A stretch of DNA of 64,000 nucleotides from Centroscyllium fabricii (lineage: Eukaryota). Within the stretch, counting starts at the first letter, position 1. The number at the start of each line of letters is the position of its first letter. The notes under the pieces were generated by a model. It did no database searches and was not told where the DNA came from. It saw nothing but the letters and a program-made list of their open reading frames with translations. Below are positions 30,670 to 61,216 of the stretch, piece after piece. A program made the position numbers and the translations under genes. The DNA lies in contig JBNRSN020000003.1 of assembly GCA_051313645.2 (NCBI GenBank), positions 517,762,001 through 517,826,000 on the forward strand. The letters run 5' to 3'.

Positions 30670-30972
30670 CAGGTTGAGCACCGTTAATCCGGCACCAGGC
30701 TGGACCACTGAAAATTCTGAACCACTGAAGGTTCGGGGGGAGCGCGCGGTAGAACACTCCCCGGGGCCTGGAGTGCGCGGGTAGAACACTCCCCGGGAGG
30801 GAGCCCGGGGATAGAACACTTACAAGCTCTAAAAAAAACCAGAAAAAAACCAAACGCCCGACGCCTTCGGTGCTAGCACACCCTTTGCGGGAAACGGTGG
30901 CGCAAAATGAAGAGCGCTGGTTTCCAATCGTGCCGGACCACTGAAGGTGCCGGACCACCGGTGCTCAACCTG
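30670..30972. mobile_element. TA-flanked Tc1/pogo-type MITE (subtype B)
   Basis: TA-CAGGTTGAGCACC...GGTGCTCAACCTG-TA; internal repeats of TAGAACACTCCCCGGG. Confidence 0.88.
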
Positions 30973-31260
30973 TACCAAGTTTGGAGTTGTCGCTGTCCAT
31001 GAAAAACGTTTAAATTGAGATTAAAGGAGCTGTATGTCGTATTTTGGCACAACTGATAAAAACAATAATTCAACTACACAAATGTTGATTATGTTCAGAT
31101 TCGTACAAACCTATAAAAAAAAAAGCCACCAGAGGATTCCAGCAAAAAATAATGACAGTTCAGTGGGTAAACGTGGTGCAGCACTGAGCCATATAGACCA
31201 AGAAGGTTTGAATGCCTGGTTTGTGTTAAATTAGCTGTGCTTACCTGGGGTAGAGACAAT

Positions 31261-32084
31261 GGGCCAGAAATTTGGGTGCCTCGCACCAGTTGCACCCGCA
31301 CGGAGGGGGGCCAATATGCCCCATGCGATGATCGCACGGGGCATGCCCATGGATCGGAGCATTCTGATGCTGAGGGAGAAGAGGCCTCAGCATGGAACGC
31401 ACAAAAGAATTGCACCCAAAAATCCCGATGTTTTTGGGTGTGATTCTGTGCGTTCATCTGTGGGCAAATGGGCTCTGAGCTGCACGGGAAAAAAGGATCC
31501 GTAACCCGTGCGTTGGTGAGAGCAGTGCGTTCCTAAACAAGGTAAATGACTTTTTAAATTTAAATTTTAAGTATTTATCAATTTTTTGGAGTAACGTGGC
31601 CAGATCGCTAACATTAAATTTTGCTGTTAAAGTTTAAAATTTTTTTTTAAATCCGAATTCCAATTGTTATACCTATTCCAAATCGCTAATTTTTAAATTT
31701 TAAGTTCTGAAATTTTAAACTATTTAGTTAAGTTAAAAAACTAAGAGAAAAAATGGCTGAGACTTACCTCGAGTGAAAAGCTGCTCACTGCCGAGTCTGT
31801 GGGTGCAGCGCCTCACGTTCCTGCTCTCTAAGAGGTCCGACTCTGAAACAGGGGGCGTTTTTTATTTAAATTAGGGATCTGTGGGCGGGGCATCACTGTT
31901 ACGCACGCACGACGGCAGCGCATATACTGCGCTCCTAGCGTGGCTGGACTGCCACGCAGCGCAGGAACGGGACGGAGCCAACTGGAAGGTCTGGACGTAA
32001 AAAAAGTGCGATGTTGGTGCGGTGCTATAGGTGTCCGTAGGGTCCTTGCACCCGCACCAACCGGCACACCCGAATTTCTGGCCC
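31261..32084. mobile_element. Harbinger-type MITE
   Basis: TIR GGGCCAGAAATT(T/C)GGGTG; TSD AAT. Confidence 0.85.
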
Positions 32085-32328
32085 AATATAATTGAAATCA
32101 GTGTTCCTGGAGAAAGGAAGAAAATAAATCAGCTGATGCTTGTACTCCTAATATTGAATACCCTTTCTTGACTGTATGTGCATACAGGTCTTCATTGTCT
32201 CTCCCACTGCTGCTATGGGACAGGACCACTATTCTGCAGGTCCGTGGGCTGAAAACGCTAAAGCAACATATTATTGCTTATTTCCCTATTACTCATGCAG
32301 TGGGCCAGCTGATTTAAGAAATTTATTA

Positions 32329-32699
32329 CAGGTTGAGCACCGGTAATCCAGCACCCTCGGGACCAGGCCGGTGCCGGACCACTGAAAATTCCGAACCACT
32401 GAAGGTTTGGGTAGAACGCGCGGGTAGAACACTCCCCGGGGCCCGGAGCGTGCGGGTATAACACTCCCCGGGGCCCGGAGCGTGCGGGTATAACACTCCC
32501 CGGGAGGGAGCCCGGGGATGGAACACTTACAAGCCTTAAAAAAACAAACCCAAGCGCCTTCGGCGCTCGCCCACCCTTCGCGGGAAACGGTGGTGCCGCC
32601 GAGCGGCTACTCCGCAAACCGAAGACCGCTGGTTTTGATTCGTGCCGGACCACTGAAGGTGCCTGACCATCGGGTGCCGGATTACCGGAGCTCAACCTG
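32329..32699. mobile_element. TA-flanked MITE (subtype B)
   Basis: CAGGTTGAGC...GCTCAACCTG, TA flanks; similar to 30670-30972. Confidence 0.88.
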
Positions 32700-33590
32700 T
32701 ATTCCAATCTTATAACAGTTGGAAAGTTAGCAAAAGAAAATTAAGCTCCTATTGAGGATGAATTAAAAAGTTAACATATTAAACTACTTCCTGCAGTAAT
32801 CACTGGAGGTGCTAAACTTACAACTTTGGCATCACTTGCAAAGGAGGTCTTAGGCAGGTCAAGGACAGCTGAATGATTGTTGAATACAAGAAACATCCGG
32901 CTGGACTGAAAACAGACTGTTTTCAAAAAAAGTGACAAATTAAACCTGGATAACTACATTACTCCAACATCAGTGACCAGCAAAATAATGGAACTGATTA
33001 GGAACAAACTGGAGGATTACTGATATGAAATTCCCACTGCCATTATTTGGAAACTTACAGATTTAGAGAAGTTGACAGATTTAATGAAACAATCGTTTAG
33101 CTAGAAGGGCTGGGAATGAAGACATCGTAAGACTTAGAAATCTGGGAGAGTCTAGAGCTATTGAAGCTTATACTGATGCAATTACTGGTGAGAAGACAGC
33201 ACTAGGGATGGAACTTCAACAAAATCAGACATATCTCAAAATTGGAGAAGGTTCAAACAGTATAAATGGATGCCATTTTTACACCAAGCCTAAGGCCAAT
33301 CATGCTTCATAAACAATACAATTTTGATTAGGTTTTAAAATATTACTAATTTATTAAGGCATTGCTTAAGTTCAATATTTACCTTGTCCGTACAATAGCC
33401 ACGGCAGACCACACATCATAAAAACTTATGTGAGGTGGTATTAGAAACAAAGATTTCTGGTGGGTGCCTCAGAGTACACCAGAATAAAACGCCACAGCAA
33501 AATCCTTGGAAGACTAAAAGACAGGTTGTACGAAGGCATTCGTTGAACCAAGTTTGCAACCAACAGGTGACTCATTACAGAAACCCGATA

Positions 33591-33970
33591 CAGGCTGTGC
33601 ACCGTTAATCCGTTACCCGATAAGCCGGCAGCTTCAGTCTTCCGGAACAAACTGCCCCCACTGCCCTGTGCATGCACAAAATAGCCGCCGCGATTGATGC
33701 TTCAGTGAATGATCTGCGCATGTGCTGCCGAACAGCGAGCGCATGCGCAGATCATTCACAATGGCCGCCGCAAAGTTTTTAATGATCTGCGCATGCGCTG
33801 CCGAACGATCCCGGGCTGGGCCTTCCCGAGCCGGGCCTTACCCAGCCTCCGAGAGCCGGGCCTTACCGAACGATAAGCGCATGCGCTCGCTGAAGCTTCA
33901 ATCGTTCGGGATTTTCACTTTCCCGGCACGGGCCTGGTCCTGACTGTGCCAGATTAATGGTGCTCAACCT
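33591..33970. mobile_element. TA-flanked MITE (subtype A, GCGCATGCGC-rich)
   Basis: Degenerate CAGG..GCACCGTTAATC TIRs. Confidence 0.8.
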
Positions 33971-34606
33971 AGTGTTCTCTGCAGAGGGATGAGGGATAGT
34001 GGGTGATGTGACAGTTCAAAAATAGCTATGCACCTTTATAGCGATGACTAAAATGATGGGGGTTGGGGGAGTAAAAGAGAAAATGACCTTTTCTATGGTT
34101 GTTTCAATTCTGACTTTCGTAGCTTCGGAAGTTAACTACCTGCTTTATTTTTGTCCTTTTCTCCCAGTCACTTCCATTTTGGTGTTATTTTCTTATACAT
34201 CTTGTCCCTGTCCTTTCACTACCTTACTTATTTCATACTCTTTTGTTGGGGAGAGTACGTTTTGTGATGCACAAGGCATCTCAATTCCATGGAACAGGCT
34301 GGATGGACCAGTAGGTTTTATTCCGTCCATCATTTTCATATGTTCTCCAGACTTTTCATTGCCTCACTGCCATAATCTTCGTATATCATTCCAGGTTTGA
34401 AAATAAAATATGTTTGCTCGCTCTCTCGGACAGAAGTCAACAATCTTGACCTTTGTTCCCTCTTCTTTGCTTTTTCATTTTATACACCCCTATAAAGGGC
34501 GTGTTCATCTTGGGTTCATGCCCCATTCCAGAGACGCTACAGTGCAGCACTGAGGGAGTGCTGCACTGTCAGAGGTGTCATCTTTTAGACCAGACATTAA
34601 CCACCG

Positions 34607-37143: not shown

Positions 37144-37207
37144 TCACCGATGTGTGAAGAATCCCTGTGGATGATTGTATTTGAAAGGCTTGATTCGATT
37201 CGGACCT
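37144..37207 (-). CDS. THOC5: THO complex subunit 5, last coding exon
   Basis: (R)[20 protein letters not shown]-stop, matching the recalled human C-terminus [21 protein letters not shown]; pyrimidine tract and AG. Confidence 0.96.
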
Positions 37208-37672
37208 CTAAAGGGAGAAGGAAGAAAGAGTCAAAGCACGAGGGTTTCAGAGTACACGGGACTTCAGCAACTGACAAAACTAGATTTAATTTAACGTAAA
37301 ACATTCTCTCTTATGTGATCTTAGACAAGACACGCCAGCAGGTTATTCAATTGTGGAGAACATCACAGCAAAGCTTGTCCCCGTGTACGTTACAGCAGAG
37401 GTCAATGGTTACTGATGATGAATGGAAACACAGGTTCCCCTCCCTAGTCCGGGGGCGGGGGGTAGGGGAAAGGGCAATTGAGCCTTAATTGCTTCCCCAG
37501 CAGAGATTAGCAAAATTTGATTGGAAATCAAATCTAGGTTCTTCAAGTCTGTATAGTTTAGTACCACACATGATGCTTTTACCCAATGAGTGAACAGTTT
37601 AATTTATCCTGAAAGCTTGATATAGCTCAGATTTGGTACTGCACATTTTGTATAAATACAATGCAGCACATT

Positions 37673-38407
37673 GGCCCAAAAATTAGCCTCGGAGGCTTCC
37701 TGCGCGTGTATGCCTCCGAGGTCCACTTGCTCTGCGCTCCTGCCATTCTCCAATTCTGCGATGTGAAATCCCGGTTTGGAGTGTTGCTTCAGGCTCCATG
37801 CTGAGGCAACTCAACGTCGTAGCTACTGCGAGAGCGCGCGCAGGACCATGTGATCTGCAGGGAGCCAATGAATGGAAGCAATCCTCCATTCATAACTTAC
37901 ACGGAGAAATCTGTGTAAACTATGAAAAGGAAGAGCTTCAAAAACACATCTAAACACGAAAATAAAATTAAAAGAACACCACATTTTTAACAATACTCTT
38001 AACTAACATAAATTACCTATTTTAAAGAAAAAATAAAAATTCAGATTTAAAAAAAAAAGTTTTTAACTGGCCTAAAAAGATACTTACCTGTCTTTAAAGT
38101 AAAAAAAAAGTAAAAACCTGTAAAAAAAACCTTAAATTCTATAAAATAAAACACTTACCTGATAAAAAGGGATCATTACGGCTGATATTTTTCGATACTT
38201 ACACAGATAATAAACTCAAAAAAAAAAATCGGAATCCTACTGTGCACCTCTTGGTGCACAGGCGAATGCGCTGCAGCTCGCGACCCCCCGCTGGCCTTCA
38301 TCAGAATTGCAGGTAGCACCGGGAAATAGCGTCTACCTGCAATTCGGAGCCCACATGCGTGAGTACCCGGCTCCAGAACGGTCCGCGATCACCCTAATTT
38401 TTGGGCC
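37673..38407. mobile_element. Harbinger-type MITE in the last THOC5 intron
   Basis: TIR GGCCCAAAAATTAG; flanks ATT/AAT; homologous to 17505-18256. Confidence 0.82.
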
Positions 38408-38576
38408 AATAACTATCACAAGCTATGACACACAAGGGAAACAAATATACTACTGCAAAACACACAAAAACAGTAATCAACACTAAATGTAACAAAATGT
38501 GCAAAATACAATGAATTCTGATGTGATTATTTAAATATTGCTTTGCAAGCTACTGCAATACTGACTTGTTCTTGTA

Positions 38577-39244
38577 CAGGTTGAACACCGTTAATCGGGC
38601 AACCGAAAAGCCAGCAACGTCAGTCGTCCGGCACAAATCGCCCCGACTGCCCAGCGCATGCGTAAAATGGCCGCCGCGATCGAGGCTTCGGCGAATGATC
38701 TGCGCATGCGCCGCCGAACGGCGCGTGCATGCACAGATCATCCGCCGAAGCCTCGATTGTGGCGGCCATTTTGCGCATGCGCAGGGCAGTCGGGGCGAGC
38801 AGACAGACAGGAGAGGACAGGCGCGAGAGAGCAGCAGGGCCCACTCCAGCCTTTGATCCCGCACATTCACGCTCACCTTCAGGAGACGCCGACCCCATGG
38901 AAGGCAGCAGCGGCTTCAACAGCGACTCGGACGGCCGAGAGCTCCGGCGCCTCGGAGATGAGGATGAGAAGGAGGAGGCCTTCTCCGACCTGTCGGATGA
39001 GGAGCAGATGCCCGACATCGAGGGTACAACTTCGGGGCGGCCATTTCGCACAATCTGCGCATGCGCTCACTGTTCGGCGGTGCATGCGCAGATCATTCAA
39101 AAATTCGCGGCGGCCATTTGCAATGTTATGCGTGCGGCCATTTTGAACGGTGCGCGTGCACCGGCCGGCTTCATTCTCCTGTTTTTTTCGGTATATCGGC
39201 GTAGGCCTAGTCCCGCCCATGCTGAATTAACGGTGCACAACTTG
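38577..39244. mobile_element. TA-flanked MITE (subtype A) with cargo
   Basis: CAGGTTGAACACCGTTAAT...ATTAACGGTGCACAACTTG, TA flanks. Confidence 0.87.
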
Positions 39245-39755
39245 TACCACAATTAATCCATGCTTAGCGAGTTCAGAGTGATGCGATGAGCCATACAGAC
39301 TAGGAAGGGTCCAGAATCAATCCTCAGTCTGCGCTGAGTGAATTAATCTCAGCTGGGGTAGCAGTCGGGAGGCTAGAACTACCCTCAGCAACTCTGAGTT
39401 AAGGAGGCAAAAATCAGCTAAGTTTCCTGCTCCTGATTGAGTCATCCAGTGACCGTGCTGGAAGTCTGTGTGTGGGTGCAAGTGAGGACAAGATTAAACT
39501 TGGCTGTGATGGGCCCAGTGGTTAAATGGACTGTCGACAATCATGATTTGGGCTCACACATATTGGCCACTTGGGTCCGGTCCCAGCGGCTGATAAGCAC
39601 TTGTCATATCGTGCTCCAAGTAGGAGCCAATGCCTGTACAAGAGGAGGGGAGAAAATTGGTGTGGATTTTTTTTAAAAACAGGTCCGAAACTGCTGTGCT
39701 AGCCGAATATCTGACGCAGGATATTCTTTTATATAAGATATTTAAAAAAAAATAC

Positions 39756-39946
39756 CTAACAAGGCGCAGACACATCTTCTCTTGTGGGAATTCCTTAGGC
39801 CCCTCCACACTGTTATCATGAGTCTCTGTTTCCAGATACACATCCAGACACATGCATAAACGCTGGATCTGATTTGTCAGCAGCTGATGGCCTGGTTTGG
39901 GACCCAGCAACTCCTTGAAACATACATTAACTTCACCTTCTATAGC
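39756..39946 (-). CDS. THOC5: THOC5 coding exon (2nd from last)
   Basis: [63 protein letters not shown]; 191 nt, phase 0 to 2. Confidence 0.96.
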
Positions 39947-40042
39947 CTGAAAGAAACAATCCACACAGAAATGGTCAAAGCGAATACATTCAGACACGCC
40001 TCTCCACAAATTTAGATATAATCATATTGTAATAGTGATCAA

Positions 40043-40492
40043 AGAAACATAGAAGATAGGAGCAGGAGTAGGCCATTCGGCCCCTCGAGCCTGCTCCGCC
40101 ATTCAATGAGATCATGGCTGATTATCCAAATTCAGTACCCCGCCCCTGCCCTCTCCCCATATCCCTTGATTCCTTTAGCCTTAAGAAATATATCTAACTC
40201 CTTCTTGAATATATTTAATAGGTTGGCCTCAACTGCCTTCTGTGGTAGAGAATTCCACAGGTTCACCACTCTCTGGGTGAAGAAATTCTTCCTCATCTCT
40301 GTCCTAATTGGCTTACCCCTTATCCTTGGACTGTGCCCCCTGGTTCTGGACTCCCCGACCATCGGGAACATCCTTCCTGCATCTAGTCTGTCTGGTCCTG
40401 TTAGAATTTTATAAGTTTCAATGAAATCCCCTCTCATTCTTCTAAACTCCAGCGAATATAAGCCCAATCGACCCAATCTCTCCTCATACGTC
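40043..40492 (-). mobile_element. CR1 LINE 3' fragment (young family)
   Basis: YEERLGRLGLYSLEFRRMRGD; near-identical to the 5527 and 22097 copies. Confidence 0.93.
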
Positions 40493-42338
40493 CATTCTCC
40501 ATTTGCGAGCCCAGATAGGAAGCATCGGTGGTCTACACATATTCTGGGATGCATCACGGCAAACTAAACTTGCCCTTAGCGGATTTCCACATATGTACTT
40601 TCCAGTATACAGCGATCATGAGCAGGAACTCTGGCTGATTCTTCCCTTGTGCCCACCCTGCCTCCATTCGACCCACAGAGATCAAGGATAATTTTATTAT
40701 CCACAGTGCTGCACCAGCGGAGATAAACTAAATCACTATTGACCAGGAATAAAATCTGGAACCTTCCTAGTTTGCATATCTTGGTACCACACCACATGGT
40801 GTATTTACCCATTGAGTGATTGGGTAACCCTGGATGAAGAATCTTACTGCAATAATTTCTACTGTCAAATGTCACAATATCTATTTTGGGGAAGTTTAAG
40901 GCTGTGTGAATAGAAGTAAAAATTAAAAAAGTCAAGGATGTATCCTGATACCTCTCAGATACATCCTTATCAAGCCTACTTATGATTGGTAGCCAGGTGA
41001 ACTGGGAGCCAGTAGGAACCATACTTTATTATGTTGCTTTCTCCTCACAGATCCCTCCCATGGCATATACTAACTGCAAGTGGCCCACTTCAGGTTTCTG
41101 CCAGAGTTGCTCTTAGCCAGTTATGAGGCGGTGTACAAGTAAGGCGTGGTGATGGCTCTCTTCTCTCCTCCTCTTCCTTCCCTGGAGTAGTACCTGTCTT
41201 AGTTTTGTACTTGTTGACAATGCAGTGGGTGAAGTCAGGAACTTGGTAATGCGAGGAATCAATGACACAAATTTATGTCCTACCGTTCTGCTGTGTCATG
41301 AACTAGATCTGCAAAGCACGTTAGTATGAGCTCTGATTTCACTTTATTTTTTAAAAAGCACTCTGTTGTTTGAATATGCCCTGAAAATGAAATTACTGTT
41401 TTCAAAAAAAATTAAGAGGGAAAATTCAGTGGTCTCAGCCATTACATTACTCAGTCATGGATCATACTGAATAGTCTCACATGATGACAAAGACCACTAA
41501 TAAATAATTCAAGGCAAGCATCATTCTTCTTAAAGTAGATATTAATTCATTGCACAGAGGGGCATTTAGGTCTTTAAGTGTTTTACAGTTTAAGTTAGGC
41601 AATTTCAAAAGTTGAGGTAGCCAACTTGTTTAATATGACTATTAGCTGGTGGAATGCCCAAGGTGAGAATGCAGTCGTGTGTAACACCTTCTCACTCACT
41701 ACATGATACAGTGAACAGGGAAAAATAATTTTTACTACTTGGTGAGTCAGTAACAAGGGGGCATAAATTTAAGATCACCTAGAGAACGGAAAAGGGTTAA
41801 AAACCCATACGGTTGTTAGTTAATGGAATATCCAACTAGAAATAATGGTTATTATAAATAATAGCTTTTAAAAGGAAAGTAGATAAATATTTAAATAATG
41901 GATATGGAAAAATGATAGTAAGTAGTTAGCCCTTTGAGACCCGGTGCTGGTATGATCGAATACATGTATAAACAATTCACATTGGGCAAGGCACACTTGC
42001 TTTAATTCAACCCATTCAGTAAATCATCTTAGAAATGGTCATCTTACAAAAGCCAGTTCCTAGTTCTGATAGAGTTTACACCCAAAAATGATTTTTTTCT
42101 CTTCAGATGTTGACAGATCTATTGTGTATTTGCATTGCTTCATGTTTTTACTACTGTGACTGGGCTCATCATCACCCCCGCCCCGTGCCTACTGCATCTG
42201 CTGCACTGTATTAATGGCTCAGAAAGAAAATGCACACCTCAACTGTGGTGCAATCCTTCCCCGCTTTCCCCATCCCACAGAAACACATGTGGAAATACAC
42301 CTGGACTGTAGACATGGATCATCAGCTCATTCCCACTA

Positions 42339-42870
42339 CAGGTTGAACACCGTTAATCGGGCAACCGAAAAGCCGGCAACTTCAGTCGTCCGGCACAAAT
42401 CGCCCCGACTTCCCTGCGCATGTGCAAAATGGCCGCCGCAATCAAGGCTACGGCGAACGGCGAGCGCATGCGCAGATCATTCGCCGAAGCCTCGATCGCG
42501 GCAGCCATTTTGCGCATGCGCAGGGCATTCGGGGCGAGCAGACAGACAGGCGAGAGAGAGCAGCAGAGCCCACTCCAGCCTTTGATTCCGGCACATTCAC
42601 ACGCACCTTTCCGACGCCATGGAGGGCAGCAGCGACTCGGACTCGGGAGGCTGAGAGCTCCGGCGCCTCAGAGTCACTGGGAGACGAGGAGAAGGAGGAG
42701 GCCTTCTCCGACCTGTCGGATGAGGAGCAGATGCCCATTGGTGTTTACCGCGTGCCTTCAACCGCGCTTGAAACGGGGACAGGTCCCGCCTGGCTGGCCT
42801 TGATTGGGTGGTGGCGGGGTGGCAGGAGGTTTGTGATTGGTGGAATGGCCTGTCAATCCCGTGGCTGGGG

Positions 42871-42901
<31 letters not shown>

Positions 42902-45237: not shown

Positions 45238-45307
45238 ATCGGGACGGTGAGTGTCTCTCTCTCTATCTCTCTATCTAATTAATTAATAGCTTACATACCT
45301 GCCTATT

Positions 45308-49151: not shown

Positions 49152-49267
49152 CTTTAGGTTATCATCATTGCGGCTTGATTTCTCTCCCTTCCAATTTAAA
49201 CAGATGCTGAAGACAGGGGGGATGGTAGAATAACCAGGATTCAACACTATAGCCACATGGAGCTTTG
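49152..49267 (-). CDS. THOC5: THOC5 coding exon (3rd from last)
   Basis: (A)[38 protein letters not shown]; AG / GTAAGG; phase 1 to 0. Confidence 0.95.
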
Positions 49268-49533
49268 CTAAGTGTAAATAACGAACATTTAAATTAAGTA
49301 AACACAGAAGTTGTTTTCATCAAAGGCAACCTCACTCTCCACTGTAACTTGCAATCCATTACTCTTGCATTTTATAGTGCCAGTGCTCCATTTATAGTCT
49401 GCTACAATTTGGGGCTTTTAATAGAACCGTTTTCTCTCTCAATATTTTAATAGTGGTTCTTGTATTGGCCCTTGTCCCTTATGAACCAGAAGCTGTAACT
49501 TTCTGATATTCTGGTCCTAACAAAGCCGAGTAA

Positions 49534-49675
49534 CAATGTTCCCCATAATTGTTTGGGGGCCACGCGGCCCCTTAAAGTCTGCGCGTGCATGTTTTTTTTC
49601 CAGTTTAAAAGCCGGTCACTGTCTGCGCAGAACCCCTGGAGCGCTGCATAGTTGTGCAGCTTATAGAGAACATTA
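49534..49675. mobile_element. Short hAT-type MITE
   Basis: CAATGTTCCC...GAGAACATTA; degenerate 8-bp TSD CCGAGTAA / GTGAGTAA. Confidence 0.6.
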
Positions 49676-49789
49676 GTGAGTAACCTAAGCAGTAACAAGT
49701 ACTCTATCGGCAGCAATCTTGATTAGCAGTATTTTTGCTGCATGCTACCAAATATTTTTTGAGTTGGTAGATATTTAACACAGGTTATA

Positions 49790-50264
49790 CAGGTCCGGCG
49801 TCGTTAATCTGGACGCCGGTAATCCGGAAACTTCAGTCGTCGGGAACGAATCCGGCCGACTGGTCTGCGCACGCGCAAAATGGCTGCCGCGCCTGGCTGC
49901 GCATACCCGGGCCCCTCTCCGACTGCCACGCTGGTTTGCGCATGCACAAAATGGCCGCCGCGCTTGGCTGCGCATGCCCGGGCCTCTCCCTGACTGGTCT
50001 GCGCATGCGCAATATGGCCGCCGCGCTTGGCAGCGCATGCGCAAAATGGCCACCGTGCTTGGCTGCGCATGCCTGGGACTCTCCCAGAACGATTGGTGCT
50101 TCGGCGAGCGCATGCGCAGACCATTCAAAATGGCCACCGGCCTTCGCGGTGGCCATTTTGAATGGTCTGCACATGCACTCGCCGAAGCTTCAATCGTTCG
50201 GATTTTTCTCTAATCCGGCACCAGCCTAGTCCCGCCCGGTGCTGGATTAACGATGTCGGACCTG
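49790..50264. mobile_element. TA-flanked MITE (subtype A variant)
   Basis: CAGGTCCGGCGTCGTTAATC...GATTAACGATGTCGGACCTG, TA flanks. Confidence 0.88.
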
Positions 50265-50894
50265 TAGTTTATCCAGACTAGAGCAGCATATTTATTTACA
50301 ATTAATTAACGATAGGACGTACAAAGATTTGGCAATGCTAAGCGTACAATATATCTGATCTCACACAATCAAAATATCTGTAATGTGTCAATCGCTCTTT
50401 CAACAAAATAAGTTTCTGATGGTTCACTAAATAAAATCCTGCTTTCGGGCACGATAAATTCTGTAGAGCAAGAGTGAAACAGATTGAATTATGAATTATT
50501 TAGAGTAAGGAGGAGTCACTAAGGATGCATGTTAGCTCCTGTCATACTTTGTACAGACAGCTGTATTTATTACTAAGCATTTCATTCCCTCCAAAATTGT
50601 TTGTTTGATTAAACCTAAAGCTCTCAGATTTATTTTTGAGCCAAAAAAGCACATATTTGCTTGCGTTTCACCTGATGTTTTGACCCAGATTTAGGGGAGA
50701 AAAATCCAAACTTATTTTCAAATTACTTTGGATCCCATATTAAACTGAGGTTCTAACTTCACAACAGCAGCTATATTTTATAGCATGCATTATGGTCTCA
50801 ATTAATTGTAGCTGTACAGTTCAATGTAGGGCTGAAGTTTCACTGAAAGTTGCGAGGCAACTGTGATATTATTGCAAAGCGACATGGTCCCTGC

Positions 50895-51040
50895 CAATGT
50901 TCCCTCTAATTTTTTTAATGCGTGGTCCCTTTAAATTTGCTGCGCACGCACAGCATCCCTTCCAGGGGCAGTTGCTGGTGAGCGGCCTGCGCGGGACCAC
51001 GCGATTGATGTGTGGCTCCGCACCTTAGTTGGGAACATTG
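50895..51040. mobile_element. Short hAT-type MITE
   Basis: TIR CAATGTTCCC...GGGAACATTG; TSD GTCCCTGC / GTCACTGC. Confidence 0.8.
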
Positions 51041-51271
51041 GTCACTGCGACTACCCTCTGAACGGATTATTTTGGAATTCCAAAGCAGAGTTATTGGGAA
51101 TTAACTCATATTGCAAATTAGATCAGATTATTCAAATCATGACTTCATTATGTAAAACTGCACTGCAAAAATACTCATTGTGCATTTGGTCAAAGGTTTA
51201 AAGGTTGTGTGACCATGATAAAGGCTTATAAAGCTCAGCTGCAGTCAGTCTTACGGGAACTTGGCTCCTAC

Positions 51272-51359
51272 CTGTTCCTCGTTCTATCAAAGCTGAAAAG
51301 AAGAGGTCAGTCTCTTGAGCCATGGTTGCTTCTATGACGTGCTTGGTGAAAGGCAGAGC
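51272..51359 (-). CDS. THOC5: THOC5 coding exon (4th from last)
   Basis: ALPFTKHVIEATMAQETDLFFSALIERGT; phase 0 to 1. Confidence 0.94.
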
Positions 51360-51767
51360 CTAAGAGAGAAATCAAGAGATTCATTCTTCTGCTTCGAACC
51401 TCAAAAGAACAGATTCAAGAGGATCATATACAATACTTTCAAACAACTTGACTTCTTAAATTGTCTGAACAGTAACAATAAAAGAATGGAATAGAAATTA
51501 CAGTACAGAAACAGGCCATTCGGCCCAAATGGTCTGAGCCGGTGTTTATGCTCCACATGAACCTCCTCCTATCTTACTTCATCGCGTCCTATCAGCATAA
51601 CCTCCTATTCCTTTCTCCCTCATGTGTTTATCTAGCTTTCCCTTAAATGCATCTGGGCAATTTGCCTCAACTACGCCATGTGGTGGCTAGTTCCCCATTT
51701 AAACCATTCTCTGAGTAAAGAAGTTTCTCCTGAATTCCTTACTGGATTTATTAGTGACTATCTTATA

Positions 51768-52576
51768 CAGATTGAGCACCGGTAATCCGTTAACCGGAAA
51801 GCCGGCAGCTTCAGTTGACTGGCATAAATTGCCCCGACTGCCATGCGCATGCGCAAAATGGGCGCCATGATTGATGCTTCGGCGAATGATCTGCGCATGC
51901 GTTGCTGAACGGCGAGCGCATGCACAGATCATTAAAAACGGCCACCGGACGTTTTGAGTGATCTGCGCATGCGTGGCTCCGAGAAGAGCACGGAAAGGTA
52001 AAGGCGGGCGTTGTGTCAAAGCCGGGAGGAGAGTTTGAAGAATGAGGAGACGGAGCCGCTGGACTGGCGGCCTGGGCTGGAATGGGCTCCTCGGGCGCGC
52101 CCTTGAGCCCGGCTTCTCTTTAAAGGGATCGCGTGGCGCTGCCTGGCTTCAAATGTCCCGGGTCCCCGCAAACCCGCCGCAAGCTCTTCACTGCCGGCTA
52201 ACCGGGCGCAGCCCCGCCACCCCTTCCCCCTGGGGGCGATGGCCAGTTTGCTGCTGTACTTTGTGCCGAGTCTCTGGGCTTTGCACTGATTCCATGGGCT
52301 TCGGCCCCGCTCAGTTAGAAATCTTCGCTCAGAGTCGCGGGGAGAGAGAAAGGAACCAGGCATTTGATTAAAAAGTGGTGTGCCTCATTTTTAATTAAAA
52401 AAAGCACATGAGTTTCAAATTCTTCAAAACTTCGCGGCGGCCATTTCCAATGTTATGCACATGCGTGTGGCCATTTTGAATGGTGCGCACACTGGCCGGC
52501 TTCATTCTTCCGGTTTTTTTCGGTATACAGGCGCGGGCCTAGTCCCGCCCGTGCCGGTATAATGGCGCTCAACCTG
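51768..52576. mobile_element. TA-flanked MITE (subtype A) with unique cargo
   Basis: CAGATTGAGCACC...GGCGCTCAACCTG, TA flanks. Confidence 0.85.
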
Positions 52577-53069
52577 TATTTAATTTAAGAGCGTTTTTGC
52601 TCTCTTTTTGCCTGTCCTTTCAGATCTCCCAGTGTCCTCTTCTGTTTCTCTCTTTCTAGGTTTACTTTTTTGATTTTTTTTCTCTGATCCAATCTTCCTT
52701 TAGTCCCTGTTATAGCAGGCTAATTTCCCCCTTGGCTTTTAGACCCTGTCCTCACTACACTTCAGATGAAAAATATTTTTGTTCCTAGATCTCTGCCCAT
52801 GCCATCCCTAGGTCAACTGTTAGGAAGTACTCAGTTGTCAACTGTCGAAAAAAGCATGAAAGTCAATACGACAGGTCATACTGAAGTATGAATATTGCAA
52901 CTGAGGATCCAGTAACTCTGAGGAAAGAGCATTGCACTCAGTGGCAATACTAATCAGTTAAGTCTACAGCCAAGAACACTCACCCTCATAGCTAAAGCAA
53001 CAAGTGTGGCCATGAAAGAGTAAGGCTATTAAGAGGAAGAAATAATGTAGATAAAAAACGCACACATAC

Positions 53070-53173
53070 CGCATAGTCTTCATATGAAACGGCACTCCAT
53101 TTGATCAATCTAGATATGATCTTCACTGGGAAAAGATGCTGGCATTCACTGGCTATTGGGACAATACTGTGTT
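53070..53173 (-). CDS. THOC5: THOC5 coding exon (5th from last)
   Basis: (E)HSIVPIASECQHLFPVKIISRLIKWSAVSYEDYA; phase 1 to 0. Confidence 0.95.
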
Positions 53174-53176
53174 CTG

Positions 53177-53552
53177 TAAAAGAAAGACTTGCATTTATAT
53201 AGCGCCTTTCACGACCAATGGACGTCTCAAAGTGCTTTACAGCCAATGAAGTACTTTTGGAGTGTAGTCACTGTTGTAATGTGGGAAACGTGGCAGCCAA
53301 TTTGCGCACAGCAAGCTCCCACCAACAGCAATGTGATAATGACCAGATAATCTGTTTTTGTTATGTTGATTGAGGGATAAATATTGGCCAGGATGCCGGG
53401 GATAAACTCACCCTGCTTTTCTTCCAAATAGTGCCATGGGATCTTTTACGTCCAAAAGACGGCACCTCCTACAGTGCAGCACTCCCTCAGCACTGCACTG
53501 AGTGCCAGCCTAGATTTTTTTTTAAATGTGCTCAAGTCCCTGGAGTGGGATT
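53177..53552 (-). mobile_element. Deu-domain SINE abutting a THOC5 splice acceptor
   Basis: Homologous to 9309-9728; its tail ends a few nt from the AG. Confidence 0.8.
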
Positions 53553-53612
53553 TCAGATTTATTAATCTTAACATTCAAGACACACAACCTGAAGGGGCTA
53601 CACGGTGGCATA

Positions 53613-54031
53613 GGGGGGCGGCACGGTGGCATAGTGGTTAGCACTGTTGCCTCACAGCACTGGAGACCCGAGTTCAAATCCAGCCTCGGGTACTATCTGT
53701 GTGGAGTTTGCACATTCTCCCCGTGTCTGCGTGGGTTTCCTCCGGGTGCTCCGGTTTCCTCCCACAGTCCAAAGATATGCGGGTTAGGTTGATTGGCCAT
53801 GATAAATTGACCCTTAGTGTTAGGGGGATTGAATATGTGGGGTTATGGGGATAGGGTGGGATATGTGTCGGTGCAGGCTCGATAGGGATCAAGGGATATG
53901 GGGAGAGGGCAGGGGCGGGGTACTGGGTTTGGATGATCAGCCATGATCTCATTGAATGGCGGAGCAGGCTCGAAGGGCCGAATGGCCTACTCCTGCTCCT
54001 ATCTTCTATGTTTCTATGTTATGTTTCTATG
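53613..54031 (+). mobile_element. HE1-like tRNA-SINE (full length)
   Basis: Full head and (TTTCTATG)n tail. Confidence 0.93.
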
Positions 54032-55534
54032 AAGTATGGGCACAAAGGGTTTTCAAATCTCTTCTATCATCTTCTACAGCTAGGAGCCAGTCAATTTAGA
54101 ACTGTAGTAAATGATTCTACAATCAGTTCCAGACACTTTTCACTCTACTGCAATTAGTTTTTCCATCAAGAATAGTTCAGGACAAAAGTTCTTAGTGGAC
54201 ATGGGACACTAAGAGTTGTATAAGCAAGCTTGTGCCATTAACCTTGTTAACCAATCTGGCTGGGTGAGGTATAAAGATTCCCAATTTATCAGGAAATCAA
54301 AATTACTACCCAGACAATTCCTCTTGGCTATGCAGGTAATTGGAATCTCCTTGACTCCCTGTAATAAACGCAACAATTCAGACACTAAGCATCGATGGTA
54401 TTGTGACTCCCACGACTATTCATGCAGATAATTGGCAACACCATCATATTTCCCAGCTAGATAAAATTGTTTCAATCTCAGTTACTGGGCATTCTAAGCA
54501 TGCAGAAGTTCAGTTTTAACTGAAATTGAAAGCATTCATTTAAAACATTTTTTTAAATTACAAATATCATACTCCTCAGGACAATTACTTCTAAGTCATA
54601 CAACAGAAATATCCCAGGGGAAAATAGTTGCTTTGCTGCTGTTGTGCATGCACCTTCTTGAAGCTAGTTCAGAGAGGCACTGACAGAGGTCCAGAGCCGT
54701 TTGTTTGACTGCAACTGTTGCATGGCCACATGGGATTAGGACTATTGCGTGGTGGGTGAATATCAACACTGACTGGTTGTGTCGAACAGTCAATTTTTGT
54801 GTGGTAATTTCTGAGTAATTCGAAGTAATGGGGCAGAACAAGCAAACGTTAACCTATGTTTTCACTTCCCAGGATTTTCTGTTTTATTTTAAATATATAC
54901 ATCATATGGATATGTTCAGCAGTTCCAATTCTTTATATTATATTATCTGGGACACAGAGTCTGAATTAGAGCCAGGAAAAGTAGTGTGACTGAGGAAGTG
55001 CTTTGGTGACGTTGAAGCTACATCACAAAAAATGCTTCAAGCATTCGTCTTTGTTGGGATTCTGTTTCCACCAGAAACAGTTTGAAACTGGATTCTGTTG
55101 AAATTTAGATCTTCATATTGGCACTACACCAGCGTTAACAGGAATCTTGCCTGCCAATAGAGAGCTGTGCATAAAACATGCCTCCAGAGGGTGCCATGGA
55201 GGTACCCTTTACCTTACTTCCATGTTGGGGACTAAAATAAGACAAGCACATCAAATGGTCTTCGTTGCACTGATTACCAGCCTAGAGTTAAGTATGATCA
55301 TTGTCAATTGGTGGCTCGCATGGCTGATTATTTAGCGAAGTCCACTGCTATTTCCGCAGCCACATCAATAGATAAGGGTAGACGACTGTGGCCATGATGC
55401 AGTAGTGCAATGCAGTGGAACACCAATGAATCGTGCTGCAGCAGCAGGGATCCAGGTTTGGCTGCTTTACACAGCTGAGTTTCTGGTCTCAGCCATGCTG
55501 CTGCGGTGAAGTGCTGAACAGAAGCAACAGAATA

Positions 55535-56260
55535 CAGGTCCACAATCCCTTACCCGAAACCCTTGGGGCCAGATGTGTTTTGGAATTTTTCAGAACGGGC
55601 GGCACGGTGGCATAGTGGTTAGCACTGTTGCCTTACAGCACTAGAGACCCGGGTTCAAATCCAGCCTCGGGTGACTATCTGTGTGGAGTTTGCACATTCT
55701 CCCCGTGTCTGCGTGGGTTTCCTCCGGGTGCTCCGGTTTCCTCCCACAGTCCAAAGATGTGCGGGTTAGGTTGATTGGCCATGATAAATTGACCCTCAGT
55801 GTTAGGGGGATTGAATATGTGGGGTTACGGGGATAGGGTGGGATATGTGTCGGTGCGGGATCGAGGGATATGGGGACAAGGCAGGGACAGGGTACTGGGT
55901 TTGGATGATCAGCCATGAGCTCATTGAATGGCGGAGCAGGCTCAAGGGGCCGAATGGCCTACTCCTGCTCCTATCTTCTATGTTTCTATGGTAGGGGTAT
56001 CTACAACTCAGACATTTTCACAGTGAAATTACACTCAAAATCACAAAAAATATCAGAGAGCAGCAGAAGCACGTGTGACTGGTAGCAGCACTGAGACACA
56101 ACTGACGCCTCACACCTGTGTGGGTCAAGCGTCGGCCGCGTCAGGTCATGTTTGGCGCAACTCAGGACATGTCGTGCACACGAGTGACGCTCCACGAAAA
56201 AACTTTCGGTTTTCAGAGCTTTTTGAATTTTTGAATTGCGGATAAGGGGTTGTGGACTTG
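55535..56260. mobile_element. Tigger/pogo-like MITE interrupted by an HE1-like SINE (55597-55990)
   Basis: TA-CAGGTCCACAATCCCTTA...TAAGGGGTTGTGGACTTG-TA. Confidence 0.82.
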
Positions 56261-56590
56261 TAATACAACTCAAAAGACAACCAACCTACCAAGGAACAAT
56301 GGAGAAAACAATGCCCCGGGGTTCACATGTCTCTTACAGGTTGTCCCAGAGTGGCACTGCCAGACGTCTGTGAGCAGGACACCCTCTCAGTTAGAGTGCA
56401 GGACATGTGCAGTCAGAAAACTTGAGGAAAAGAGAGAAATTTCTACCTCACAAAAATGAAAAGGTAGAAAACTACATAATCACTACTTTCCCCTGCCTCT
56501 GCCGTGACACCACTCTACCGAGTACAAAGACCTCATTTTAGCTCATGATTCCGAGAAGCTTGGAAAAGGAAACCATAAACTGATACTCAC

Positions 56591-56705
56591 CAAGTGAAGC
56601 AAACTGCTTCTGCAGGGACAGTCGGGACTGCAACCTCACACGCAGCAGTTTTATTGTCGTTTCCATGTGACTGGCGCTCAAAGAATTGTCAGCCATCACA
56701 AATTT
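56591..56705 (-). CDS. THOC5: THOC5 coding exon (6th from last)
   Basis: [38 protein letters not shown]; AG / GTGAGT; phase 0 to 1. Confidence 0.95.
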
Positions 56706-57006
56706 CTGTCAGAAGGGTAGAAATAAAAAAAACTAAATCAAAGCTCAATGCAGAATAATTTTGCAATATATTCCAAAAACATATTTTTGCAGAATAATTT
56801 CCAACATTCCCCAAATTTATAATAGCCTGCTTAACAATAGTTACTTAGAAAACTGCCAGACTGCCATAAAAACACAACTGTTCACTGATGTCGTCAAGTG
56901 AAGGAAACCTGCTATCCCTAACCAGTCTGCCCTGCACGTGACCAGTCTCTGTTCATGTCCTCAGGACAACTAGGAATGGGCAATACTGCCCTGTCAGTGG
57001 CAAATA

Positions 57007-58380
57007 TAGAAACACAGGAAGAGGAGTAGGCCATTCAGCCCCTCTAGCCTTTTCCGCTATTTACTCAGATCACACTTGCACCTCAACTCCATTTACCCAC
57101 CATTGCACCGTATGCCTTGATGCCCTTACCCACCAAAAATCTATCCACCTCAGTACTGAAAATTTCAATTGATCCAGCAAGAGTGCTCCAGATTTCCACT
57201 ACCCTTGTGTGAAAAAGTACTTCCTGATTTCACTTCTAAATGGCCTAGCTGTGATACTGTGCCCCATTGTTCTGGATTCCCCACCAGAGGAAATAGTTGC
57301 TCTGTATGTATCCCATCGAATCCCGTCATCATTTTAAACACCGCAACTTGGATCACCCTTCAACCTTCTAAACTCAATTCACGTTTATGCAACTTGTCTT
57401 CATAATTTAACCTTTTACGCCCGAGTGTCATGCCCGGTAAGGCTAATTTGTACCCTCTCCAAGGCCAATTTATCCTTCCTGAGCTGCGATTGCCAAAACT
57501 GAAGACAGTGCTCCAGATGGGGGTCTCTGGCCAAGGTGTTGTACAACTGAAGCAGATACTTGCTCCTCTTTGTATTCCAGCCCTCGAGATAAAGGCCACC
57601 ATTCCATTAGCTTTTTTGATTACTTTTTGTACCAGTGCTTCAGGTACCAGCTTTTAGTGATTGTGTACATAGACACCCAAATCCCTTTGCTTCTCCATAG
57701 GTCCTAATCTCTCCCCATGATGAAAATATTTTGGTTTGTCTTTCTCAGATCCAAACCTCACACTTCCTCACATTTAAACTTTAACTGCCGTAGCTTTGCA
57801 CACTTACTTAATCTGTTTATTTTCCTTTGCAACTTCCTGCTCCTATCTACACAACTTCCTGTGCCTCCTAACGCAGGTTATCTGGAAACATCAATATACA
57901 ACTCCCTATTCCTTCATGCAAGTCATAGATATACAGGAAACTCTCGATTTACCGGCACCTAAATAACCGGAAATCTCGATTAACCGGCAAAATGCAGGAG
58001 TAGGTTCAGGTAAGTTTTACTTCATATTAGTGGCCGTTCCTGGATCTGTGGCTGTGTAACCGGGGTTCCTGCACCTGTTGCTATGCAACAGGGATGCCTG
58101 GATCTGTGGCTCGGGTTCCTGCACCTGTTGCTAAGCAACAGGGACGCCTGGATCTGTGGCCGTGTACGGGGCTCTCGTACCTTTTACTATACCTTTCTGT
58201 AATCTGGACTTTTTGATAAACCGGCACCATGCCGGTCCCGTCGGTGCCAGATAAAAAAAAAGTTTCCTGTATGGTGAAAAGCTGAGGCCTCAGTGCAGAT
58301 CCCTGGGGAACACTACTTGCCATGTCCCTCCAGTCAGAGTACATGCCCTTTATCTCTACTATGTTTCCTAGCCACCAACT
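57007..58380 (-). mobile_element. Old degraded CR1, interrupted by a TA-MITE
   Basis: CR1 tail near 57007; SVPQGSALRPQLFTI remnant. Confidence 0.7.
57934..58269. mobile_element. TA-flanked MITE (CAGGAAACT subtype)
   Basis: TA-CAGGAAACT...AGTTTCCTG-TA; internal imperfect tandem repeats. Confidence 0.8.
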
Positions 58381-58861
58381 AATTACTGCATCCCAGGAAA
58401 CAATAAATAAGAAATGCACTATATATAAATGAATTACTACAACAAAATCATTCGCTGGATAAGAAATTGATTTTTTTTTACTATACATAGACAATTTCAC
58501 AATAGAGTGGTCATGCTTTACTACGAAGTTTCAATCATACATCTGATCCTGAGAATACCTGCTTGCGCACAATTTGTTGACAAATAAATCTTGATCACGA
58601 ACAGTACAGCCCTCCCTCATTTAACAGCTGTGCATTTTGCTCCTTGTGTTGTAGAATTTGCGATAATTAATGTCCCATATCAAACGGTAAAATAAAGTCA
58701 AAAGCCAAGATCCATTGTAGCTGATAGCAGAGAAGATGACCCATTTTTATTTATTATCTAATGGAGCTGGTACTTCAATAAAGTAGTTTTAATAGAAAAT
58801 TGCTCATTGGCAGATAGGCAAACTATGGTCACTGATAGAACGTAGGTTGTTAGTCCTAATA

Positions 58862-59472
58862 CAGGTTGAGGACCGGTAATCTGGCACCTTCAGTGGTCCG
58901 GCACGAATCAAAACCGGCGGTCTTCAGTTTGCGGAGCAGCCGCTCGGCGGCGCCACTGTTCTACCCGCACGCTCCGGGCCCCGGGGAGTGTTCTACCCGC
59001 GCGCTCCGGGACCCGGGGAGTGTTCTACCCATGCGCCTTCTTTTCCCGACGATGACGTTGGAAACATTGGCAAAGAAACCGGAGCTTGCCGCTTGGGCCA
59101 AAACCTGCCATTGCCATCGAGCTGAGGGAATGAATGATCACTTTTATCAGGCTGCGATCAAGGTCAGTGGACTTGCTTACATCAGACGGGACCAAACAGA
59201 GCCATCGCTTGCAGGTTGCATGCACGTCCCCAATGAAAAACATTCCGCTTCCCACCTCCCCCCACCCCCAAAAAAACCTTCCAGTTGTCCAAGGGTGAGC
59301 CCGTTTACCGGCACAGACCTGCATCTAACTTGAACTGAATGCCTTGGGGATGACAGGAATCTGTATTTACACTGGCACCGGGATCTTCCCCCGAACCTTC
59401 AGTGGTTCGGAATTTTCAGTGGTCCGGCACCGGCCTGGTCCCGAGGGTGCCGGATTATCGGTGCTCAACCTG
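58862..59472. mobile_element. TA-flanked MITE (subtype B, reversed) with a unique interior
   Basis: CAGGTTGAGGACC...GGTGCTCAACCTG; arms match the reverse complement of 32329-32699. Confidence 0.85.
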
Positions 59473-59649
59473 CAGTGAATCCATGGGAAAAAAAATCTCT
59501 TCACAATAATGTCTCCACTTCTACACCAAAGAGGTTCCCTACCATGTATACTAGTGTGTTCTTACTTACCCCAAGTCAAATTTTGGAATGTTGCTCACTT
59601 AACGCCACCAACATTTTAATGAGCACTTCTCTAAATTCCAAAGCCTCAC

Positions 59650-59746
59650 CTGTGGCTGATCCTTTGGGAAATGCAGTCCTCCAAGCTTTTGAACCCAAAC
59701 ATAGGGGTGGCCCAGCTCCCCAATGTAGTCACTGAAGGTTAAAATT
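59650..59746 (-). CDS. THOC5: THOC5 coding exon (7th from last)
   Basis: (G)[32 protein letters not shown]; phase 2 to 0. Confidence 0.96.
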
Positions 59747-59789
59747 CTAGGGAAAATAAAACAGTTTTAAGATCAATATATAGAGACAT

Positions 59790-60442
59790 GGGGCTGGATT
59801 TTACTCACCGAGATGCGTTGGGAGCGGGACTGCTGCCTTCCGGGTTCTAGTCCCGCCCCCAGCGACGTCTGACGCACAGACGCTATTTTGCCCTGATTGG
59901 CCTCGTTAAGCCCCGCCCTGCAGGCTTGTTGGCCAATTAAGGGAAAGGTGGTGTCAGATGACGTCAGTTGATGATGCTTCATCTGGCGGTTTTCTTAAGG
60001 CATAGGCACCACACTTGTTTGACAGATGATTGACAGTGTTTGACAGCATTGAGGTGCTGTCAAACACTGAATCACTATTGTCAGGTGAGCCCTTGCTCCC
60101 AGGCTCTCCAATGACTCTCTCCTTAGGATAAAACAGATGGCAGCTGTCACTTCTCCCACTGAGGTGAGGCCACACAAACTCTTCAAAGCTTGTCAGCTAC
60201 AAAAAAATTTAAACACATTAAAAATGACTTTCCCAACATTTCCTTACCTCTGATACTCACCAGTGTCCCATTGCATCCTTCACACCACTTCTGCAGCTGT
60301 CATCTATACACCAACATAACAACAGACCCACAGCACGCCTCAGTTACCCTGGCGGAGTTCCATGACGTCAGGAAGCCCGCAGCAGACTTTCCCAGCAGTC
60401 CCGCCTCCAAACCCACTTCCTCAGGGCTGGTAAAATCCAGCC
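59790..60442. mobile_element. Harbinger-type deletion derivative
   Basis: TIR GGCTGGATTTTAC...GTAAAATCCAGCC. Confidence 0.7.
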
Positions 60443-60790
60443 ATTTATATCAGAATATTTGCACTCTAATTTCTGTTCTTAGGGTCAGATTTGCTTTGTG
60501 GAAAAAGCAGATTTTGGGAACTATAGGCAAAGGGTTAGCATACTGTTGTTTTATCTCTGGTATCTGACTTTAATCCAATCTGATGTGATGAATGACTACC
60601 TCTGCCAGCTGAACAGTTCACAAGATAGACAGATGGGGAAGGCCATTCAGCCTATTTTTGCTCATCCACCTAGAAAAAACAATGAATGAATCCTGCCATG
60701 GCATCACAAATAGTCAAGTCACCAAGCATAATAATTCAGAAAAACACCCTACTTCAATGAATATTACACGTCTCCAACAAAATTGTGATA

Positions 60791-61216
60791 CAGGTCCAAC
60801 ACTGTTAATCTGGAACGGGCGGGACCAGGCCGGTGCCGGACAAGTGAAAACTCCGAACGATTGAAGCTTTGGCGAGCGCATGCGCAGACCATTCAAAATG
60901 GCCGCCGAAGGCCGGCAGCCATTTAGAATGGTCTGCGCATGCGCTCGCCGAAGCATCAATCGTTCGGGACCATTCAAAATGGTCGCTGCAAAGGCCGGCG
61001 GCCATTTTGAATGGTCTGCGCAAGCGCTCGCCGAAGCATCAATCGTTCGGGGAGGCCCGGGCATGCGCAGCCAAGCGCTGCGGCCATTTCGCGCATGCGC
61101 AGACCAGTCTGGCAGTCGAGGAGAGGCCCGCACATGCGCAGACCAGTCAGCCAGATTTGTTCCGGATGACTGATGTTAGCGGATTACCGGTATCCGGATT
61201 AACGGTGCTCAACCTG
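60791..61216. mobile_element. TA-flanked MITE (subtype A variant)
   Basis: CAGGTCCAACAC...GTGCTCAACCTG, TA flanks; GCGCATGCGC / AAAATGGC arrays. Confidence 0.85.

What the first reader, a model, noticed from the sequence alone, without database searches (positions are those of the whole stretch)
30670..61216. Cargo-swapping TA-flanked MITE family (Pack-TIR-like) clustered in and near THOC5
Seen: ten elements with related CAG(G)-starting TIRs and mostly TA flanks (30670, 32329, 33591, 38577, 42339, 49790, 51768, 57934, 58862, 60791), about 300-890 bp long. I saw none in the first 30 kb. Arms are shared within subtypes, but central blocks differ and look like CpG-island, 5'-UTR/first-exon or motif-array sequence. 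One cargo occurs in two copies. Inference: a non-autonomous Tc1/pogo system that captures and redistributes promoter-like host DNA. This is the best candidate here for an undescribed system.
Basis: partly seen in the sequence, partly recalled or inferred. Interest (0 to 1): 0.75.

Follow-up and report, generated by a model that had tools for sequence, protein, structure and literature searches.

The report
Shark mini-transposons mass-copy host gene pieces
Small non-coding jumping elements in what is likely a shark genome carry pieces of host DNA, including the start of the helicase gene DDX60, and two of these pieces have been multiplied far beyond their single source copy, likely as decaying passengers, a scale of gene capture known mainly from plants.

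Summary
All ten elements are real: TA-flanked, about 23-bp inverted ends of Tigger/pogo type, no transposase. Four of ten carry foreign DNA. E4 and E5 share the first coding segment of a DDX60 paralog found in 11 shark and ray proteins; both copies are frameshifted. The inserts of E7 and E9 exist in two related species at single-copy depth without the element's arms, those species have empty TA sites here, and in the window's species the inserts are highly multiplied. Capture therefore came first, amplification after. This works as a multicopy Pack-TIR; a 100-genome survey found only four such cases (PMC8277862).

The parts
30670..30972 (+). E1, MITE of the E1/E2/E9 subtype; 32-bp repeat units inside
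   Evidence: 9.0% mismatches to E2
32329..32699 (+). E2, MITE; the common form of the subtype from which E9 derives
   Evidence: the commonest loose end at 58960 is the E2 interior
33591..33971 (+). E3, MITE with E7-type left arm, E10-type right arm, 71-bp GC-rich middle of unknown origin; right TA lost
38577..39244 (+). E4, Pack element: left arm with a 161-bp fold-back (element positions 62-222), insert A, right arm
38799..39030 (+). Insert A in E4: about 80 bp of upstream sequence plus DDX60 codons 3-54 (38879-39022), frameshifted in the middle
42339..43226 (+). E5, Pack element with two inserts
42538..42737 (+). Insert A in E5: second DDX60-derived copy, 8.0% mismatches to the E4 copy, different indels
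42738..43095 (+). Insert B in E5: four related units with CCAAT boxes separated by G runs; origin untested
49790..50264 (+). E6, MITE whose interior is tandem and inverted copies of arm modules
51768..52576 (+). E7, Pack element; site empty in two related species
51975..52420 (+). Insert C in E7: GC-rich host DNA (5' part 65% GC, CpG o/e 0.79, candidate GT donor at 51998); its 5' part is single-copy and arm-free in two related species
55535..56260 (+).
57934..58269 (+). E8, TA-flanked MITE of a different family (9 and 11 of 20 to the Tigger4-like end)
58862..59472 (-). E9, Pack element in E2-type arms, opposite orientation to E2; site empty in two related species
59038..59388 (.). Insert D in E9: 351 bp of host DNA (52% GC), one arm-free contig at single-copy depth in a related species
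60791..61216 (-). E10, same subtype as E6 in opposite orientation
37150..63120 (-). 3' part of THOC5 (host gene holding E4-E11 in its introns)
   Evidence: PDB hit E 8e-12; Pfam FmiP_Thoc5; exon positions by recalled short motifs

Best explanation
These are non-coding, TA-duplicating miniature transposons with Tigger/pogo-type ends, several sub-lineages of which carry host DNA (the DDX60 start and two loci that are single-copy in related species), likely picked up by template switching at their hairpin-rich interiors and then likely amplified by a pogo transposase acting in trans. Shown: TA target duplication with empty sites in relatives; foreign origin of three inserts; many diverged copies sharing the same arm-insert junctions (E7, E9); cargo-free relatives of E9; strong fold-back arms; decay of the DDX60 frame. 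Inferred: the DNA break or stalled fork at the hairpin, the template switch onto GC-rich host sequence, the identity of the transposase, serial capture (E5 second insert; E1/E2 interior as an older capture), and lack of function.
For: DDX60: tblastn 68 bits against a maximum of 30 in 300 shuffles; a profile of 11 shark/ray N-termini hits only E4 (E 3e-17) and E5 (E 5e-8) below E 1 among 1658 six-frame segments; rest of the protein has no hit at these places. E9: one contig joins 58860 to 59474 in each of two related species; the insert is one 926-bp contig at depth 33.8 (flank 36.9) in species C, matching only 59038-59388; in the window's species summed depth over the insert is 2,900-20,200 against 3-8 in the flanks, up to 44 and 55 contigs carry one variant letter, pieces with 12-16 differing letters cross both junctions, and 861 and 839 contigs leave the right end into unlike flanks. 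E7: arm depth 0 in species C and F, insert on single contigs at depth 40.1 and 30.3; in the window's species 36,000-98,000 against 4.5; empty-site joints in both relatives. E4 against E5: arm 8.5%, insert 8.0% mismatches, unrelated flanks. Arms fold at z -2.6 to -7.6, inserts at -0.1 to +1.3. Ends match a published Tigger4-like lizard MITE end at 12-16 of 20 for nine elements.
Against: No donor locus was seen in the window's own genome (no genome held). Summed contig depth is no copy number, so multiplicity is shown but not counted. The flanks of the outgroup contigs were mostly not shown, so arm-free status rests on the match stopping at the insert edges, on zero arm depth (E7 in C and F, E9 in F) and on one 183-letter loose end; species C has E9-type arms elsewhere. 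In species F the E9 insert has depth 2.2-2.5 against 7.9 in the flanks. The E7 insert is 10-11% diverged from its orthologs, more than the THOC5 flanks (2-4%), and its 3' 140 bp is matched only by a 44-letter piece in one relative. The E7 empty-site joint has a high-copy repeat on its left. Copy number of the DDX60 subfamily was not measured. Microhomology to the donors could not be read. No transposase was found or tested.
Confidence: 0.82

Rival explanations
1. The interiors are internal-deletion products of one long autonomous element, or nested known transposons, with no host donors.
For: E6/E10, the 32-bp arrays and much of E3 are built from element modules; insert B of E5 and the middles of E3 and E8 are untested and could be such.
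Against: Insert A encodes a conserved host protein start; inserts C and D are single-copy and arm-free in relatives; no Pfam transposase or other family at E below 0.04 in 12 frames of inserts C and D.
Confidence: 0.05
2. Direction reversed: the DDX60 N-terminus is an exonised piece of this transposon.
For: The segment is acidic, low in complexity and outside the helicase domains; of the 120 listed homologs only the 11 shark/ray proteins have its motif.
Against: It is present in sharks and rays alike (11 proteins), whereas the related E7-type arms are absent even from two close relatives; the element copies are frameshifted while the gene frame is open; the copies resemble the Heptranchias and Pristiophorus sequences most, as expected for a recent capture.
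Confidence: 0.03
3. Each insert arose in place by transposition-independent gap filling (the common single-copy Pack-TIR route), any extra copies coming from segmental duplication.
For: This route explains most animal Pack-TIRs (PMC8277862, sections read); it may still explain private additions such as insert B.
Against: Relatives have empty sites, not cargo-free elements, at E7 and E9; many diverged copies share the junctions; E4 and E5 have unrelated flanks.
Confidence: 0.05
4. The captured pieces are kept and spread because they work as portable promoters, first exons or small-RNA sources.
For: GC- and CpG-rich inserts, a candidate splice donor in E7, CCAAT boxes in insert B; arms and insert C appear in a run of another species guessed to be RNA.
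Against: Inserts diverge as fast as arms (8.0 against 8.5%), frames are broken differently in E4 and E5; the RNA label is a guess and intronic copies would appear in pre-mRNA anyway; no Rfam match in 30000-62000.
Confidence: 0.1

Closest known systems
Multicopy Pack-TIRs of animals (Tan et al. 2021, PMC8277862; abstract, parts 1-2 of the text, section 9, passages and one supplement row read)
   Same: Host fragment of 200-450 bp between TIR-transposon arms, distinct target sites, GC-rich cargo, capture followed by transposition (their FoSTeST model).
   Different: They report 370 Pack-TIRs in 100 genomes, about 2 per 10,000 TIR elements, only 4 multicopy, the frog example in 3 places. Here 4 of 10 elements in 31 kb carry cargo from at least 3 donors, and two cargos are highly multiplied. 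Their only supplement row with 'shark' is the elephant shark, with 0 Pack-TIRs. Their pipeline is strict and young-biased, so rates are not directly comparable.
Tigger/pogo non-autonomous elements (Tigger4-like TcMar-N17_AC of Anolis, PMC3014272 passages; pogo superfamily, PMC7386202 passages; Tigger in Chondrichthyes, PMC9219625 passages)
   Same: TA target duplication, short TIRs (18-23 bp reported for cartilaginous-fish Tiggers), end sequence 12-16 of 20 identical to the lizard element.
   Different: GC-rich, hairpin-forming modular arms and host cargo; the partner transposase is not identified.
Pack-MULEs and other Pack-TYPE elements of plants (as described in PMC8277862; PMC8903248 seen as listing and abstract start only)
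   Same: Frequent capture, GC-rich cargo, many multicopy families, apparently more than one insert in an element.
   Different: 2-bp TA and short TIRs here, against 9-10-bp duplications and long TIRs; vertebrate host.
Bat Helitrons (PMC4224331, abstract and outline only)
   Same: Vertebrate DNA elements that capture and amplify promoters, UTRs, exons and introns.
   Different: Rolling-circle elements without TIRs; these have TIRs and a TA duplication.

Membership tests
Pack-TIR (Tan et al. 2021) | TIR-transposon sequence on both sides of an internal segment | tested here: met
   E4, E5, E7, E9 have both ends and both arms
Pack-TIR (Tan et al. 2021) | Internal segment is non-TE host sequence | tested here: met
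   DDX60 match; single-copy orthologs in relatives
Pack-TIR (Tan et al. 2021) | Parental copy without the transposon in the same genome | not testable with these tools
   No genome held; shown only through orthologs in related species
Pack-TIR, multicopy class | Several copies at distinct target sites, no cargo-free element at the orthologous outgroup site | tested here: met
   Empty sites and many variant contigs for E7 and E9; unrelated flanks of E4 and E5
Pack-TIR (Tan et al. 2021) | Microhomology at breakpoints (typical, not required) | tested here: inconclusive
   Donor flanks mostly not displayed; only one donor flank (30 letters) seen
pogo/Tigger MITE | TA target-site duplication | tested here: met
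   8 of 10 TA on both sides; single TA at the empty E9 site in two relatives
pogo/Tigger MITE | Short TIR (40 bp or less) resembling Tigger ends | tested here: met
   About 23 bp; 12-16 of 20 to the published Tigger4-like end for nine elements, 9-11 for E8
pogo/Tigger MITE | Autonomous partner with a pogo-type DDD transposase and the same TIRs | not testable with these tools
   No transposase domain in 142 of the 172 frames of 80 aa or more beyond position 4400 (most of the 30 left out were LINE frames, element frames or frames scanned); no genome to search
Pack-MULE | 9-10-bp target duplication and long TIRs | tested here: not met
   TA and about 23 bp
Helitron | No TIRs | tested here: not met
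   TIRs present in all ten

The most novel reading that the evidence does not exclude
This shark pogo-MITE family is a dedicated shuffler of gene 5' ends: its arms, studded with NRF1- and YY1-like motifs, stay open and near active promoters, so repair at its hairpins preferentially copies gene starts, serially, and the resulting thousands of promoter-plus-splice-donor modules act as new transcription starts or as small-RNA sources against donor genes such as DDX60.
Probability: 0.12. Interest if true: 0.85.

Novelty: new variant of a known kind. Interest (0 to 1): 0.62.

Why it matters
Gene-fragment capture by cut-and-paste transposons is held to be rare and almost always single-copy in animals. 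Here it is frequent enough that 4 of 10 neighbouring elements carry host DNA from at least three donors, and two cargos were multiplied strongly within one shark lineage. That makes a vertebrate system in which the capture mechanism, its bias to GC-rich gene starts and the fate of cargo can be tested on hundreds of copies with close outgroups. It also matters for annotation: such copies mimic first exons and CpG islands, and masking them could mask the real exon of the donor gene.

Tried and rejected
Naming the donors of inserts C and D failed: PDB search of one E9 frame gave only a chance hit (E 2.7); protein search of that frame gave 0 of 2 candidates; Pfam on all 12 frames gave one weak phage hit (E 0.04); the 110-aa frame of insert C gave one repeat-summed bacterial hit. 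Indels in the relatives also argue against these frames being coding. PDB search with the insert A peptide gave nothing useful. The first shuffle control was too loose and was redone. Candidates 44553-45002 and 63391-63661 from the loose scan were dropped (not found by the strict scan). The run search listed no holder on record as RNA; this says nothing on expression. The gap of 30.6 kb without elements has P 0.009 under a uniform model, but the test is post hoc, the first half holds large retroelements and the family has hundreds of distinct flanks, so THOC5 targeting was rejected as unshown. A 45-bp likeness between insert A of E5 and 44945-44989 got no profile hit and was dropped. Literature: six searches besides 'Pack-TIR' and a motif search listed no paper on gene-capturing TIR elements in sharks; 'Pack-TIR' stands in 3 papers. 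Only listings were seen for most; subscription journals, Repbase/Dfam entries and bioRxiv supplements were not searchable, so absence from print is not established. Look-ups of earlier scan notes by the sequences of E4, insert C and insert D, and by place, returned nothing.
Full report
Observation. All ten starts are exact and each has a partner end 303-888 bp away, the two ends agreeing at 16-21 of 23 letters; TA flanks the left end in 10 of 10 and the right end in 8 of 10. A strict scan found 9 such elements in the window against 0-1 in 100 resampled windows, including an eleventh element at 55535-56260. THOC5 lies on the minus strand (PDB; Pfam); its last coding exon is near 37150-37210 (located with recalled motifs), so E4-E10 are intronic and E1-E3 lie downstream.

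Anatomy. Self-comparison gives four groups. E1, E2 and E9 share arms and a 32-bp repeat. E3, E4, E5 and E7 share a left arm. E6 and E10 are one subtype in opposite orientations, their interiors made of tandem and inverted copies of arm modules. E8 has other ends. The motifs that look promoter-like belong to the arms: 29 of 32 NRF1-like and 19 of 20 YY1-like hits in the window are inside elements and none is inside an insert (motif names recalled). The arms fold strongly as DNA (z -2.6 to -7.6 for five of six arm or core segments, -1.3 for E2) and the four inserts do not (z -0.1 to +1.3). In E4 and E5 a long fold-back ends exactly where the insert begins.

Insert A is the start of DDX60. The 43-residue peptide in E4 returned one protein among 35 candidates, a shark DDX60 (E 0.18). 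Eleven shark and ray proteins of this paralog share that N-terminus. The best scores 68 bits against the window versus at most 30 in 300 shuffles, and a profile of the eleven hits only E4 and E5 below E 1. The match covers residues 3-54. Heptranchias and Pristiophorus match best, which suggests a squalomorph shark (inference). E4 and E5 differ by 8.5% in the arm and 8.0% in the insert, have different frame-breaking indels and unrelated flanks: two insertions of a master that already held the cargo, now decaying. Whether the 80 bp before the coding match is 5' UTR or an intron end could not be told.

Insert D (E9). Contigs of two samples of the window's species and of two relatives were laid on 58600-59800. 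In both relatives one contig joins 58860 to 59474, an empty site with one TA (for the letters). In species C the insert is one 926-bp contig at depth 33.8 (flank 36.9) that matches 59038-59388 only; in species F two contigs cover it at depth 2.2-2.5 (flank 7.9) and one runs on into 183 letters that are not the arm. In the window's species summed depth is 2,900-20,200 over the insert against 3-8 in the flanks, other copies with 12-16 differing letters cross both junctions, joints that skip the insert show cargo-free relatives, and 861 and 839 contigs leave the right end into unlike flanks.

Insert C (E7). On 51560-52780 the arms have depth 0 in species C and F, while the insert's 5' part lies on single contigs at depth 40.1 (52028-52225, then a 44-letter piece from 52343) and 30.3 (51975-52276). 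Both show joints across the element, though the left flank is a high-copy repeat. In the window's species the insert has depth 36,000-98,000 against 4.5, with up to 86 contigs for one variant letter. A further species, in a run guessed to be RNA, has arms and insert in several copies. The donor genes were not named.

Signs of serial capture, both weak. E5 has a second insert of four CCAAT-bearing units, untested. The 32-bp repeat of E1/E2/E9 matches 34 of 34 letters in a single-copy-depth contig of species F, where the arms are absent (records 10-11), so that interior may be an older capture.

Mechanism. Shown: TA duplication, no coding capacity, foreign inserts at fixed junctions in many copies, cargo-free relatives, hairpin arms with internal rearrangements. 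Inferred: a stalled fork or a break at the hairpins, or gap repair after excision, switches template, sometimes onto the opposite strand (fold-backs), sometimes onto GC-rich host DNA (cargo); as the ends stay intact, a pogo transposase in trans amplifies the composite. This is the FoSTeST model of Tan et al. (PMC8277862, section 9); my data cannot separate it from excision-triggered gap repair followed by transposition. Function is not indicated.

Comparison. The ends resemble a lizard MITE reported as Tigger4-like (PMC3014272), and intact Tiggers with TA and 18-23-bp TIRs are listed for cartilaginous fishes (PMC9219625); without the transposase, membership in Tigger is likely, not shown. As Pack-TIRs they meet the features testable here. 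The difference is scale: 4 multicopy cases in 100 genomes there, elephant shark 0, against 4 of 10 elements here.

Earlier scan notes (unchecked AI notes) describe the same kind of element in this genome with CENPW and MSL3 cargo and in other sharks with BAZ1A, BUD13, CIR1/FoxF1 and ALG8. My reading was written before I saw them and they are not counted as evidence; they mean the system is not new to the scan, while these donors appear to be.

Verdict. Real; a new, high-frequency and high-copy variant of a known kind; interest 0.62.

Noticed in passing
window 55535-56260: Eleventh TA-flanked Tigger-type element, AT-richer, ends 15 and 14 of 20 to the lizard Tigger4-like end, with a SINE-like repeat inserted at about 55595-55985.
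   Followed up: partly
window 26455-27260 and 44180-45290: Two related GC-rich elements of another family with shared internal blocks and different tandem arrays (45-bp units; eight 32-bp units each holding a splice-donor-like GGTGAG). May be a second cargo-carrying family.
   Followed up: no
window 31261-32086: GC-rich element with inverted ends starting GGGCCAGAAATT, Harbinger-MITE-like by recall.
   Followed up: no
window 21605-21769 (-): Frame matching a Myb/SANT-like stretch of one DDX60 entry (tblastn E 8e-5); probably a Harbinger remnant, which that annotated protein has also taken in.
   Followed up: no
window 599-4307: Gypsy-like LTR retrotransposon gag-pol in three frames (family by recall of motifs).
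   Followed up: no
window 18870-21254: 794-aa open reverse-transcriptase frame of a CR1/L2-type LINE (family by recall).
   Followed up: no
window 32490-32590 (E2) and the like part of E1: On the minus strand an E2F-like site, a short stretch and a GTAAGT donor-like motif precede the 32-bp repeats; fits an older captured first exon (motif names recalled).
   Followed up: partly
window 42738-42775 (E5 insert B): E2F-like and CHR-like motifs ahead of the CCAAT units, as in cell-cycle promoters (recalled); origin untested.
   Followed up: no
window 52008-52244, table 3: Many differences between insert C and its orthologs in relatives are C or G here and T or A there, so the amplified copies look GC-richer than the outgroup loci; only part of the table was shown.
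   Followed up: no
window 45323-47188 and 62727-62926: Long inverted pairs of SINE-like repeats (196 nt at 91%; a 98-nt near-perfect hairpin beside a THOC5 exon).
   Followed up: no
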